Shown: positions 16,701 through 22,700 of the stretch, piece after piece
Layout: each line of letters opens with the position of its first letter
Position numbering within the stretch: position 1 is the first letter of the stretch
From: Mycoplasmataceae bacterium
GTDB lineage: Bacteria > Bacillota_I > Bacilli_A > Mycoplasmatales > Hepatoplasmataceae
Assembly: GCA_030621645.1 (NCBI GenBank)
Contig: JAUXHI010000002.1
Location: 1-53,697 of the forward strand
DNA: 53,697 nucleotides
Direction: 5' to 3'
Made by a program: the position numbers

Positions 16701-19700
16701 TTATATGCAATTGCTCATCTTGGAAATTTAGATGTGTACCCTAGTTCATCATAATATTTATTTTCATTAACTTTGATTACTACACCATCAGTTTCATAAT
16801 CATTGTCTGCCCTACCGTCTAATAGATGGATAACTTTTTCATAAAGTTTTTCATAATCATTTGATTTGAAAGTTTCTTTAATAACTTTAAAACCTAAGTC
16901 TTTTAAACCTTTGAATGTTTTTTCCTGTGTATCAAATCAGTTTTCTCCTGTTGCCCCTTTAACTACTTGGAAAATGAAAGAAGATAAATTTCTTTCTTTA
17001 ACAACTTGTGGGTTTATTTGTCTTAGAGTTCCGGCGGCTGCATTTCTTGGGTTTGCAAATGGTTCTTTGTCTTGGGCTAATCTTTTTTTATTAATTCTTG
17101 TTCATTCAGTTATAGGAAGATAAATTTCTCCTCTTATAATTAATTCTTTTTTATCTTCAATAGTTTTAGGAATAGATTTAACTTGTAAAACATTGTTTGT
17201 CACATCTTCTCCAACAATACCATCCCCTCTAGTAAGTGCCCTATCTAATTTACCGTTTTTATAAATAATAGAAATAGATAGGCCATCTATTTTAGGTTCT
17301 ACCGTATATGAAACATTACCAACTTTGTCAGTAACTTGTTTAAAAAAATGAAATAACTCATCTTTAGTGTTAACTTTATTGAGTGAAAGCATCTTAATGC
17401 TATGTTCTGCTTTTTCAAATGTAGACGCTGCCATTATTCCCACTTTATTTGTTGGAGAATTTTCTTGTTTAAATTTAGGATATTGTTTTTCTAATTTAAT
17501 CAATTCCTCCATTGCTTTATCAAAAATTGTATCATCAACAGATGACACATTATCATTATAATATTCACTATTTCACTTATTCAAGTTAGTAGTTAATTCA
17601 ATAATTTTTTGTTTAGTTTTATCTTTTGTTGACATTTGTTTTATTTTTGTCAGCATCCTTTTGTTTTGCTTTTTTATTTACTTTGATTCTTTTTTTGTTT
17701 TTTTTAAAATATAACTTCTCAGTAAGAAACAATACTACTTCTACTTGTTTTTGAAATCTCTTAACAAACTTTAACCCTATAAACATGATTCTTGCTTTAA
17801 GAGGTGAAGTTCATGATAATTCATGATTATGAAGGTAGTATGAGTTTTTAGATGGTTTAAGTTCTGAAAAGTAATCCATTGAATATACTTTTATATCAGC
17901 TGGAAGTAGTTGTTCTTCACCATTAAGTTTTAACCCATAAATATCTTTTAAAATTATTGTTCACATTTCATTGTTGACAATAAATTTAAAATCCTTTTCT
18001 GAGTAATCAAAATCATTATATAAATCCAATACTCTTTTAAAGAAAGGTTGATTAGGTTCAGTTGCAACAAAACCTGTCGACACCATTTTTAAATATTCAA
18101 ATCCTAAAACTACTTTATAATCTAGAATCTCTTGTATATTTTTAACAGGAATCATATCTGTATCTAGATAGATACCACCTTCTTCATAAAGTATTTTGGT
18201 TCTTAGATAATCAGAAATAAAAGCATATTTCTTTTCTTCTAATGCTTTCTTTGTATATGCTCTTGTATTCGGATCAAAGTCTTTAAAACTTCAAACTTTA
18301 ATTTTAAAGTCTTTATACATTTTTTTGTTTAATGCAATATACCGTTTCAGATGTGGCGGTATTTTGCTTCCAAATCATATGAAATGTAATTTCTTAGGTA
18401 TTTTTTTATTCATATTTCTTAGTAATTATACCTTTTCCCTGAATACAGATTTTGATATAAAGTCTTTTAAATTAAGTGCTAATGTAAATGATATTACTAT
18501 TAAAATTGACGTTAAATTTATGGTAGTAGCAAATAAGTTTTCTGATAATACAATTGAGAATGGGTTAAAAATTATAACCATTATTCACAACAACATGTAA
18601 ATGAAAGTATTCTTTAAGATATCATCATATAATCAAATTATTAATGAGAATATCACTACAGGAATATATACAAACAACACATTAAATAATATTGAGAATG
18701 ATGTATTTCAGGCAGTGTTGGTTATTGTTGTTAAATTTAAATATAGTTTCTTAGAAACATCTATGAACTCACTACCATTAATAAATGCAAATAAAACACC
18801 TGCTGAAAGAACTACTACTGAAACCATAACTAATATTCATCTTCCAGATTCATTAATTGTGTTCATAACTGAAATCCTGTCATCTCTTCTAAATCCATAT
18901 TGCAGACTTCAACATGGAACAATTAGTAATGTAGAAATTAGTGCTGATATTATTCCGCCTCATCAAACAATGTTGTAGAACACTAATGAAACCTCAATGG
19001 CAAATATAATAAGTGCTGTAGTGAATAAAGGGAGCAACTCACCTTTTCTTTTTATTGTGTAGAAAGAAATTATTGCCATAAATAATAATAAAATTAGAAT
19101 TGCATTAGCAGACATAAAGAATATTGTTGAAGCAGAAAGCAAAGCAAGAATTAGGTTTCTTGAACTAGTTTCTCTATCTAATGAATCATTATAAATAATT
19201 GATATTGCTATAAGCATAATGGCAGTGCCAATAAACATTCCATCATCTGGTTTTATATCTCTTATAAAAAAAGCAATTATAATCGTAAATATTATTGATA
19301 ACATTATTGACTTATATGTACCAATTTCTCTAACAGAGTGTTTTATTGCTAAAAACATTACTGCAATTGTTCATGTTGGAACTAGAGTTCCAACTAATTC
19401 TTCAACTGAAACATTTGAAAACTTAGATAGCATAGCTAAATCATAATAATATGTTTGGAAAATTGTGTATGCCTCTGAATTAGGTAAAGGTTTAAATTGC
19501 ATTTGACCTGTTGCCTCAGAAAGTTTAATTGTTTCATTGTAAATTAGTGAGTTATTATCAAATGTAGAAAACCCAGGTATGTAGTTTGCAAACGCTATAT
19601 ATGTAGCTGTTACTGCAACAAGTGAAAATATACCTACCAGACCCTTTAATACTGATTTATTAGCATATTGATTCCTTTTAGGAATTCAATATTTATAAAA

Positions 19701-22700
19701 CATAACTATTACTGATAAAAGAAGTATGTTTTTTACAATTATAGATCAATAATAAACTTTAACATCAACATTGAATAATATAAAAGGCGCTAAAGAAAGG
19801 AAGGTTGCTATTTGATAAGCAACAAATCCTACTGGCAATAATAATGTGTTCCTGTTCTTAAAATTGAATAGTCTAAGAACTATTCTTCCTAATATAATGA
19901 AACCTGCTATTGATATTATTAGTATCAACGATAGCATTAATATGTTATTTTGAGAAAAACTATTGAGTGTACCCACATTTTAATTATAGAGTAAGTCAAT
20001 GAGTTATAATTATATTACAGGAGATAAAAATGGCATATAAAAGAGTTGAACTTAACTACAATTATGATGATCTTGAACCTTACATTGATAAAGAAACAAT
20101 GAAGATTCATTATGAAAATCACCATAAAGGATATGAAACAAAATTAAATGAACTTCTTAACGGAACTGTTTATGAAAAGAAGTTTAATATGTTATTAGAT
20201 TTAATGAAAAATTACCAAGAAATTGAAGAACCCGACCTTAGGGTTAAGGTTAGACAATTTGGTGGTGGGCTAATTAATCACAACTTTTTCTTTGCACACC
20301 TTAAAAAAGGCACAACATTAAAAGATGGGAATCTTAAGAAAGCCATTATTGATAAATATGGTAGTGTTGAAGAAATGATGAAACAGTTTGAAGAAAAATC
20401 TCTTTCATTATTTGGCTCAGGTTGAACATACTTAGTAGTAACCAAAACTGGTGAATTGAAGATTATTATGACATTCAATCAAGACAATCCTTGATTCTTA
20501 GGATTCAAACCTATATTCTGTTTAGATGTATGGGAGCATGCGTATTATCTAAAACATAATTCAGCAAGAGATATATATATTAAAGATTTTTGAAATGTAC
20601 TTGACTGAGAAAAAGCTAAAGAAAATTTTGAAACATTAAAAAATAGCTAAATTAAACTAACCCAGTAAAAAATGAGTAAACATTTACCAAAAGAAATTTA
20701 AATACTAGGCCTTTGTTAAGTTTCGGAAATATGAAAAATAGAATGAAAGAAACTAAAATTGACTATAATGAAGTTAGATTTCAAGGTGGATTAAAAAATA
20801 TGACACCGCATGAATATGAGGTGTCATATCAATAATAAATCACTAACCAGAATAGTGGAAATTATTGTCCACTTTTGCTGGTTAGTTTAATTTAGCTATT
20901 TTTTATATCAATTTGTTTTTGATCATTAAATCTTTAAGAGATTGTAATGCTTGTTCTTCATCAGAACCAACTGCAAAGATTGTAATCTCTTCTCCGTTTT
21001 TGACACCTAATGCCATAACTCCCATTATAGACTTCAAATTCCCTTTTTTGTTTTCTTTAGAAATTGTTATTTCAGATTCATATTTTGCTGCTTCAACAAC
21101 AAGCAATGATGCTGGCCTAGCATGTATTCCTAGCGGATCTTTAATAATAAATTTTCTTTCCATATTTACTCCTTAATTAACTTAATTAATTGATCCCCAA
21201 CTTTTATACTGCCAGATGCAATTTCAACAATCTTCCACCCATCAAATGATGAAGTTGGAAAGATTATCATAGTATCAGTTGACACATTATTTGATTTTAA
21301 AACATCAAGATCAACATTAACTAATTTATCTCCAACAGAAAGAGTTTGCCCCTGTTTGGATTTGATCAAGAAACCTTCTCCCTTTAGATTTATAGTATCA
21401 ATTCCAATATGAATTAAAACTTCAAATCCTTCATGGTGTTTAATCCCAAATGCATGACCTGTTGGAAATGCTACTAATATTTCACCATCAATTGGAGATA
21501 CAAAGTTGCCATTTTTAGGTATGACAGCAACTCCTTCTCCCATTATTTTTTGTGCAAAAACAGGATCATCTACTTGTTCTATATTTTTTACAACACCATC
21601 TACTGGTGATTTAATTATTGCTTCTTTCATATAAGTTTATTATACTTTATAGATTAATATTATGTTCTACAAAAAACTTATTGATTCTAGTTTTGACTTC
21701 TTCTTCTGTTTCTAAATCTAATATATCACTAACAAGTAAAGAAGCAGCATTTTTATCTGTTTCTGATATTACTCTTCTAATATTTAATATTGAACTTGAA
21801 GACATTGAAAATTCATCAAGCCCCATTCCAACAAATACTGGAGCCAACATTGGTTCTCCAGCCAATTCCCCACATATTGCAGTTCATTTTCCTGCTTTAT
21901 GTGATTCAGTTATAACCGTATTAATAAATCTCAAAATTGAAGGATTAAATGGTTGATATAGATAAGAAACACTTGGAGACATTCTGTCAGCCGCAAATGT
22001 GTATTGCAATAAGTCATTTGTACCTATAGACATAAAGTCAACATGTTTTGCAAACTTGTCTGCCAGCGCTACAACAGAAGGTATTTCAACCATTATCCCT
22101 AATTGATATTCCCCTATTTTAACTCCCTCTGCTTCTAATTCTATTTCAAGTCTTTTAAATTCACCCTTAACCTTTAAAAATTCATCAATAGTAGCTATCA
22201 TTGGTATGTTAATGGCTAACTTTCCATATATAGAAGCTTTTAAAAGTGCTCTAAATTGAGTTTCTAAAACTTCCTTATTATCAAGTTGCATTCTTATTGC
22301 TCTGTATCCTAAAAATGGGTTTTCTTCTTTTGGGAATTTATAATAATTTAATGTTTTATCTCCGCCAATATCTAAAGTTCTAATCACAACTGTATGTTCT
22401 GTTTTTTCTAAAACTGTTTTATATGCTTCTAGTTGTTCTTCTTCTGTTGGTCATGATTGTGCGCCCATGTATAAAAATTCAGTTCTAAATAGTCCGACAC
22501 CATCTGCGCTAACTGAAATGGCTCCCTCAAGATCATGGACAGAACCAATATTCGCAGCTACTTTAGTTTTTCATCCATCTTTGGATACTGTTTCTTTATC
22601 AATAAATGTTTTTTCAAGTTCTATTTTTTTATTAAACTTAATTTCTTTTTCTTCAAACTCAATAACAGTTTCTTCAGAAGGGTTAATTATTATATCTCCA

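What a model noticed while it worked through the whole genome (the two positions that open the first line are those of the whole stretch)
18426..19937. GT-C glycosyltransferase and undecaprenol kinase kept without uppS
The unannotated 503-aa membrane protein g00188 has the GT-C glycosyltransferase fold, a class that uses polyprenyl-phosphate-linked sugars. The genome also keeps an undecaprenol-kinase-type gene (g00527, C37:9898-10257), but uppS, which makes the carrier, is gone from its usual frr-uppS-cdsA place. Hepatoplasmataceae therefore probably run lipid-linked glycosylation on a polyprenol scavenged from host or food.
Evidence so far: A model from a 48-sequence alignment has pLDDT 88 and pTM 0.90. 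In VIA-align against 48,161 chains the top 19 hits are all GT-C-fold proteins (AftA Z13.2, ALG12 12.7, ArnT 12.4, AglB, PglB, PMT, and fold-related GPI transamidase subunits), and the next row drops to Z 7.6; the top Foldseek rows are STT3/OST. Two of 48 members hit DUF6077. Family: the g00188 family is in 13 of 14 genomes, the kinase PF01219 in 12 of 14, uppS PF01255 in 0 of 14 including 5 near-complete genomes. frr abuts cdsA here (C2:41635) and in G005 and G007. In 41 other Mycoplasmatales genomes the kinase and uppS occur in exactly the same 10, and 8 of the 9 with the GT-C family are among them. g00188 is next to a GT32 gen [...]
(Added by a program. Inside this text positions count along the whole contig: contig position 1 is position 1 of the stretch shown here. 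"Call 12" and the like, gene names such as g00115 and contig names such as C1 are that model's own, and its searches are not shown. The text may have been shortened before it was handed on; [...] marks where a part breaks off. The agent that wrote the report below was given it as the finding of a first reader that could run no searches.)

Follow-up and report, generated by a model that had tools for sequence, protein, structure and literature searches.

The report
Relic GT-C paired with lipid kinase
These wall-less symbionts keep a membrane protein with a predicted sugar-transferase shape and an intact lipid kinase, but lack the known enzymes that make the carrier lipid and load sugar onto it, so the pair likely handles a lipid taken from the host rather than running glycosylation.

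Summary
g00188 has a predicted GT-C fold and is a divergent DUF6077 relative upstream of ligA. It occurs in 13 of 14 family genomes, the kinase in 12 of 14, uppS in 0 of 14. Across 249 Mycoplasmatales genomes all 69 with a GT-C hit have the kinase, and none of 161 kinase-negative genomes has a hit. Three lineages keep both without uppS. Four relatives show the fuller operon: GT-C, GT32, a GacI/PpgS-type polyprenyl-phosphate-sugar synthase, DUF2304, ligA. The synthase is missing from all 14 family genomes. No WecA or Bac_transf initiator was found in the 2 family genomes tested, no GtrA in 5, and the Wzx-like gene of relatives in 0 of 14. The loop aspartate nearly invariant in walled DUF6077 proteins is acidic in only 13 of 35 family-level homologs, though g00188 keeps it (D127). 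One complete uppS-less genome keeps GT-C and kinase with no sugar-donor genes found. Best reading: a likely non-catalytic GT-C coupled to an active kinase that phosphorylates a scavenged lipid alcohol, polyprenol more likely than diacylglycerol. No activity was tested.

The parts
18426..19937 (-). g00188: DUF6077-like membrane protein with predicted GT-C fold, 503 aa (516 aa from GTG at 19976); lacks the C-terminal soluble domain of 620-740 aa relatives
19557..19559 (-). codon for D127, which aligns with the near-invariant loop aspartate (D-x3-Y) of walled DUF6077 proteins; the column is D/E in only 13 of 35 family-level homologs
   Evidence: position counted from the ATG at 19937
17619..18413 (-). 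GT32 glycosyltransferase with DxD motif; ortholog (E 4e-54) of the GT32 in the fuller operon of family f11
15647..17656 (-). ligA, the conserved downstream anchor of the GT-C gene across the order; in f11 a GacI/PpgS-type GT2 and DUF2304 lie between GT32 and ligA, here they are absent
   Evidence: ligA named from sequence and from PF01653 matches in relatives
20030..20650 (+). superoxide dismutase-like gene, divergent upstream neighbour in several family genomes; context only
   Evidence: name from recalled motifs, not scanned
5996..12526 (-). nucleotide-sugar genes nearby: galU-type nucleotidyltransferase, UDP-galactopyranose mutase, phosphoglucomutase, epimerase-GT2 fusion; no link to g00188 shown

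Best explanation
g00188 is a DUF6077-like membrane protein with a predicted GT-C fold, left over from a GacI/J/K/L-type sugar-decoration module, that has likely stopped transferring sugar but stays coupled to an intact kinase which likely phosphorylates a lipid alcohol scavenged from host or food. Shown: the homology, the fuller operon in relatives, the absence of uppS, dxr, the donor synthase, DUF2304 and the Wzx-like gene here, the intact kinase active site, and the co-occurrence of GT-C and kinase. Inferred: the GT-C protein keeps its polyprenyl-binding groove and binds or shuttles the lipid, as fold-sharing non-catalytic transamidase subunits are recalled to do; the kinase traps the alcohol as its phosphate; the substrate is a polyprenol or dolichol rather than diacylglycerol. 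What the phosphorylated lipid is then used for is not identified.
For: Coupling: 69 of 69 GT-C-positive genomes have the kinase; 0 of 161 kinase-negative genomes have a GT-C hit. Synteny adds GT-C in 11 of the other 19 kinase-positive genomes and finds none beside ligA in 10 of 10 kinase-negative ones. Both are kept without uppS in three lineages: f1, g42 (G199, G250, G256) and g44 (G210, G255). Co-decay: G238 has uppS and kinase broken and no GT-C at ligA; G214 has an uppS fragment and neither of the others. G165 and G207, without uppS and without GT-C at ligA, carry Asn at the Asp95-equivalent of the kinase (Asp95 listed as affecting catalysis in PMC4703834). Polyprenol link: 73 of 74 uppS-positive genomes have the kinase; same operon as in walled Firmicutes; B. 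subtilis DgkA phosphorylates undecaprenol (PMC5723303). Kinase under constraint: median identity 65% among 11 family kinases versus YbeY 48%, Era 57%, GT-C 25%. Against glycosylation: donor synthase 0 of 14; PF00953 and PF02397 not over cut-off in any of 5 genomes; loop Asp 23 of 24 in walled DUF6077 but D/E in 13 of 35 here; G199 has no GalU, GT32, GT8, LicD or DxD-bearing GT2 found.
Against: g00188 itself keeps D127, and 27 of 35 homologs have an acid within -2 to +3 of that column versus 19 expected from loop composition. The f11 proteins, which sit beside an intact donor synthase, also lack the Asp at the exact position (Q-N/T-E-D-F), so its loss does not prove inactivity. G000 and G007 do hold nucleotide-sugar and glycosyltransferase genes. 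No use for a polyprenyl phosphate was found in uppS-less genomes. Related genomes are not independent and no tree-based test was run. GT-C searches have limited reach: 11 true members were missed and found only by synteny, so some of the 161 negatives could be misses.
Confidence: 0.45

Rival explanations
1. The kinase is a diacylglycerol kinase that turns host diacylglycerol into phosphatidic acid for CdsA, PgsA and cardiolipin synthase. The GT-C-fold protein would be a lipid-handling partner or would act on diacylglycerol-anchored glycolipids. No polyprenol is involved.
For: Spiroplasma poulsonii depletes host diacylglycerol and converts it to cardiolipin (PMC4958261, passages). No DgkB-type kinase over cut-off in G000, G004, G199 or G154. 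G000 has cdsA and a PLD-family cardiolipin synthase candidate. It explains retention in G199, where no polyprenyl-phosphate-using enzyme was found.
Against: It does not explain why 73 of 74 uppS-positive genomes have the kinase, why 161 genomes lack it, or why it decays with uppS in G238. PlsC is present in 5 of 5 genomes tested and PlsX/PlsY motifs in G000, so phosphatidic acid has another source. G210 keeps the kinase beside a DgkB-type gene.
Confidence: 0.25
2. One reading: g00188 is an active GT-C that uses a sugar loaded on scavenged polyprenyl phosphate by an unrecognised enzyme (GT32, a LicD-type transferase or a divergent GT2) and flipped by an unrecognised flippase.
For: D127 kept; mild acid enrichment at the site. 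GT32 stays beside the gene in G000, G008, G009 and four f11 genomes. G000 and G007 have glycan clusters with membrane proteins bearing a PG-x-G-x-x-E motif that I recall from UPF0104/MprF-type flippase domains. DUF6077 genes of walled Bacilli lie beside a GacI-type GT2 in 8 of 29 loci.
Against: No known loader in 14 of 14 family genomes, nor in 25 of 25 f13 genomes tested, most of which have uppS. The flippase candidate hit neither Pfam nor NCBIfam. G199 keeps GT-C, kinase and the MOP-fold gene with no sugar-donor genes found. 8 of 35 homologs have no acid near the site; G006, G008 and G009 have a shortened loop. The only GT2-like gene shared with G199 lacks DxD and does not track the module.
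Confidence: 0.2
3. Both genes are slow-decaying leftovers held in place by essential neighbours (ligA; ybeY-era), with no shared function after uppS loss.
For: GT-C is very divergent (median 25% identity) and has lost its C-terminal domain in most lineages.
Against: Frames are intact across deep divergence; the kinase is better conserved than its neighbours; lineages that lose the module lose it cleanly from the same positions.
Confidence: 0.1

Closest known systems
GacI/GacJ/GacK/GacL of Streptococcus pyogenes and other multi-component transmembrane glycosylation systems (10.1101/180810; PMC8035078)
   Same: The fuller mollicute operon has the same parts: a GT2 whose best NCBIfam match is polyprenyl-phospho-GalNAc synthase PpgS (E 1e-28, below cut-off), DUF2304, and a GT-C; f13 genomes have a MOP-fold gene directly upstream.
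   Different: In Hepatoplasmataceae the loader is absent (0 of 14), the Wzx-like gene is absent (0 of 14), DUF2304 was not found in G000 or G007, uppS is gone, and there is no wall polymer to decorate.
DUF6077 (PF19554) proteins of walled Bacilli
   Same: Full-length profile match, HHalign probability 99.8%, E 1e-26; shared G17, G37 and N458-P459.
   Different: About 620-730 aa with a C-terminal domain and a D-x3-Y loop motif (D 23 of 24, Y 24 of 24); g00188 is 503-516 aa, has no Pfam hit, and the motif is not conserved in its family.
Undecaprenol kinase DgkA/UdpK of Bacillus subtilis (PMC5723303)
   Same: PF01219, ybeY-kinase-cdd-era operon as in walled Firmicutes, catalytic Glu/Asn/Glu/Asp/Lys/Asp set intact.
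   Different: Here it persists without uppS, so any polyprenol must come from outside; its substrate is untested.
Isoprenoid precursor theft by Rickettsia (recalled, no call)
   Same: Host supplies isoprenoid material.
   Different: Rickettsia keeps the prenyltransferases and takes short precursors; here the whole chain would be taken.

Membership tests
GT-C glycosyltransferases | GT-C membrane fold | tested here: met
   Model pLDDT 89.3; top 20 VIA rows GT-C-fold, AftA Z 12.3; Foldseek best E 0.036
GT-C glycosyltransferases | conserved acidic (DxD-like) residue in the first external loop | tested here: inconclusive
   D127 present in g00188; column D/E in 13 of 35 homologs; 27 of 35 have an acid nearby versus 19 expected
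GT-C glycosyltransferases | sugar transfer from a polyprenyl-phosphate donor | not testable with these tools
   needs an assay
DUF6077 (PF19554) | score over the Pfam cut-off | tested here: not met
   no hit for g00188; 2 of 49 members hit, best E 1.2e-6
DUF6077 (PF19554) | full-length homology of the membrane part | tested here: met
   HHalign 99.8%, 466 columns
Multi-component transmembrane glycosylation system (GacIJKL type) | GT-A enzyme making polyprenyl-phosphate-sugar | tested here: not met
   0 of 14 family genomes; 14 full-length hits among 80 genomes, all uppS-positive; unfiltered search negative in G000, G007, G199
Multi-component transmembrane glycosylation system (GacIJKL type) | GtrA or Wzx flippase | tested here: inconclusive
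   GtrA 0 of 5 over cut-off; f13 MOP-fold gene 0 of 14; PF01943 not searched; MATE-like and UPF0104-like candidates exist
Multi-component transmembrane glycosylation system (GacIJKL type) | own supply of polyprenyl phosphate (uppS) | tested here: not met
   0 of 14; trans-prenyltransferase PF00348 0 of 5
Undecaprenol kinase (UdpK) | PF01219 with intact catalytic residues | tested here: met
   E26, E67, N70, E74, D78, K92, D93 align with E. coli DgkA E28, E69, N72, E76, D80, K94, D95
Undecaprenol kinase (UdpK) | Firmicute ybeY-kinase-(cdd)-era operon | tested here: met
Undecaprenol kinase (UdpK) | phosphorylates undecaprenol rather than diacylglycerol | not testable with these tools
   no discriminating model in Pfam or NCBIfam

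The most novel reading that the evidence does not exclude
Several wall-less host-associated lineages independently dropped polyprenol synthesis and now take whole polyprenol or dolichol from the host. A GT-C protein repurposed as a lipid captor works with an undecaprenol kinase to do it, for a carrier-lipid function in mollicutes that nobody has described and that also explains why Spiroplasma-type genomes keep uppS.
Probability: 0.3. Interest if true: 0.8.

Novelty: new variant of a known kind. Interest (0 to 1): 0.57.

Why it matters
Mollicutes have no wall, yet 74 of 251 sampled Mycoplasmatales genomes keep uppS. This work ties uppS, the kinase and an unannotated GT-C-fold gene into one inherited module descended from Gram-positive wall-decoration systems, and shows it eroding stepwise. 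If the kinase acts on polyprenols in uppS-less lineages, these bacteria depend on a host carrier lipid, which could help explain why they resist culture. One kinase assay separates the two leading readings.

Tried and rejected
Word-index homolog searches returned only the query. uppS relocated or diverged: no hit at E up to 1 in 14 genomes or by unfiltered six-frame search of G000, G007 and G199 with three mollicute UppS proteins (best E 0.013). The GT2-like gene beside an RDD-like gene as hidden loader: lacks DxD, is present in 4 f13 genomes that lack the module and not found in G004, G007, G008. Kinase as the only route to phosphatidic acid: PlsC is present. PAP2 recycling phosphatase: none in G000, G004, G199; BacA and DedA were looked for only by recalled motifs in G000. 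GT32 as universal partner: not adjacent in 8 of 11 family loci. NCBIfam SecE hit on g00188 (E 1e-4, far below cut-off) taken as noise. The MOP fold of the f13 neighbour rests on a low-confidence model (pLDDT 55; best E 0.0017). A whole-genome profile against kinase-negative genomes was not completed, so a hidden partner is not excluded. No complex prediction or read mapping was run. Earlier-finding look-ups returned nothing.
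Full report
Observation. The gene is real and intact under table 4: 503 aa from the ATG at 19937, or 516 aa from a GTG at 19976. It has no Pfam hit. The ESM Atlas returned DUF6541, AftA_N, DUF6077 and DUF2206 clusters at 0.94-0.96. 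A profile search of 1.84 billion representatives gave 64 hits; 49 near-full-length ones were aligned and 15 fragments left out. The model has pLDDT 89.3. Its top 20 VIA rows are GT-C-fold chains, led by AftA (Z 12.3), ArnT and ALG12; the tool warns that Z under about 13 can be common for helical proteins, but the unbroken run of GT-C rows and the sequence link below carry the assignment. Hepatoplasma and Ca. Tyloplasma.

What it is. The mollicute profile matches DUF6077 proteins of walled Bacilli over the whole membrane part (HHalign 99.8%). Those genes lie beside a GacI-type GT2 in 8 of 29 loci. The mollicute gene sits upstream of ligA across the order. Four genomes of family f11 keep GT-C (638-642 aa), GT32, a GT2 whose best NCBIfam match is PpgS, DUF2304 and ligA in one run. 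In family f13, which is Spiroplasma-type by its kinase signature, a gene with a weakly modelled MurJ/MATE fold often lies directly upstream. These are the parts of the S. pyogenes GacI/J/K/L system (10.1101/180810 and PMC8035078, passages). G000 has GT-C, GT32, ligA: the loader and DUF2304 are missing from between them.

Is glycosylation still running? The loader profile found 14 full-length hits among 80 chosen genomes, all uppS-positive, and none in the 14 family genomes or 25 f13 genomes. WecA/MraY and Bac_transf families were not over cut-off in G000, G004, G199, G210 or G154. GtrA was absent in 5 of 5 and the f13 MOP-fold gene in 14 of 14. Walled DUF6077 proteins have D-x3-Y in the first loop (D 23 of 24, Y 24 of 24). 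The Asp aligns with D127 of g00188, but that column is N in 15 and D/E in 13 of 35 family-level homologs. Against my reading: g00188 keeps the Asp, 27 of 35 have an acid close by (19 expected), and f11 proteins beside an intact loader also lack it at the exact place. G000 and G007 hold galU, GT8, GT32, GT2 and LicD genes and possible flippase-domain proteins, so they make some glycan; nothing ties it to a polyprenol. G199, read in full, keeps GT-C, kinase and the MOP-fold gene but showed no galU, GT32, GT8, LicD or DxD-bearing GT2; these small profiles can miss divergent genes.

The coupling. On the same sample of 251 genomes, uppS was over cut-off in 74, the kinase in 88 of 249 and GT-C in 69 of 249; two genomes could not be scored. 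All 69 have the kinase, and 73 of 74 uppS genomes do. Of 19 kinase-positive genomes without a GT-C hit, 11 have a matching gene beside ligA, 2 have a plausible but unscored one, 2 end at the contig edge, and 4 have none. None of 10 kinase-negative genomes checked has one there. Kinase without uppS occurs in f1, g42, g44 and g40. The first three keep GT-C; g40 lacks it at ligA and its kinase has Asn for Asp95. G238 and G214 lost or broke all three. The kinase keeps the residues that matter in E. coli DgkA (PMC4703834, passages) and is better conserved than its operon neighbours. These genomes are kin; the number of independent events is a handful and was not tested on a tree.

Mechanism. The tight link to uppS and the Firmicute operon suggest a polyprenol kinase, as in B. 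subtilis (PMC5723303, passages). Without uppS its substrate would have to come from outside. With no loader and an unconserved active site, the GT-C protein more likely binds or shuttles the lipid than glycosylates (0.45). The main rival is a diacylglycerol kinase (0.25): S. poulsonii turns host diacylglycerol into cardiolipin (PMC4958261, passages) and no DgkB was found in G000, G004, G199 or G154. Active glycosylation with an unknown loader gets 0.2, and passive retention 0.1.

Novelty. In the searchable library, DUF6077 appears in 0 papers; Spiroplasma with non-mevalonate and undecaprenyl in 0; Mollicutes, undecaprenyl, isoprenoid and Spiroplasma together in 1 work, whose passages concern walled gut lineages. 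The main Hepatoplasmataceae genome paper has no occurrence of glycosyl, isoprenoid or terpenoid in its main text (PMC10928387, term search and passages); its supplements were not read and may list these genes. Searches were seen as search listings only. Most subscription papers are not searched, so this is weak evidence of absence. I rate it a new variant of a known kind, interest 0.57.

Noticed in passing
G000:C32:7613-8614 (L036); L134, L135, L136, L139, L203-L206: A GT2-like protein without DxD, followed by an RDD-like membrane gene (RDD recalled from motif), conserved across Mycoplasmatales independently of the GT-C module; a second likely pseudo-glycosyltransferase.
   Followed up: partly
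G000:C17:7780-15094 and C28:2404-4724; L347:6642-19490 (G007): Glycan clusters with GT8, GT32, GT2, LicD and TagD-like cytidylyltransferases plus membrane proteins with a PG-x-G-x-x-E motif recalled from UPF0104/MprF-type flippase domains; no Pfam or NCBIfam hit. In G007 the cluster starts about 1 kb downstream of the kinase operon.
   Followed up: partly
g00188 residues 350-358 (window about 18864-18890, minus strand): The best-conserved charged columns in the family (R350, D353, and Glu in 32 of 35 at position 358, which is Met in g00188) lie on the inferred cytoplasmic side, opposite a GT-C active site.
   Followed up: no
L056, L057, L059, L060, L067, L069 (f13 GT-C proteins): Basic residues (R-H-K) stand where DUF6077 has its loop aspartate; they could bind a phosphate headgroup.
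   Followed up: no
L217:3035-3481 (G210): A dxr-like gene follows cdsA although uppS is missing, so the MEP pathway may outlast uppS in g44.
   Followed up: no
L120:1874-3880 (G127): The MOP-fold gene is kept directly upstream of ligA although GT-C, kinase and uppS are all gone.
   Followed up: no
window 27343-29645, 34081-36042, 14098-15657: A c-di-AMP module: diadenylate cyclase, GdpP-like phosphodiesterase, a Ktr-like potassium channel (by recall) and an unannotated 557-aa membrane protein upstream of the cyclase.
   Followed up: no
window 37264-38250: A divergent AsnA-like protein (PF03590, E 6e-7) next to lysyl-tRNA synthetase.
   Followed up: no
window 50299-52332: A PTS EIICB protein with a C-terminal HeH/LEM domain (PF12949, E 5e-7).
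   Followed up: no
window about 12600-14050: A stretch without long genes that looks like a tRNA cluster; not scanned.
   Followed up: no
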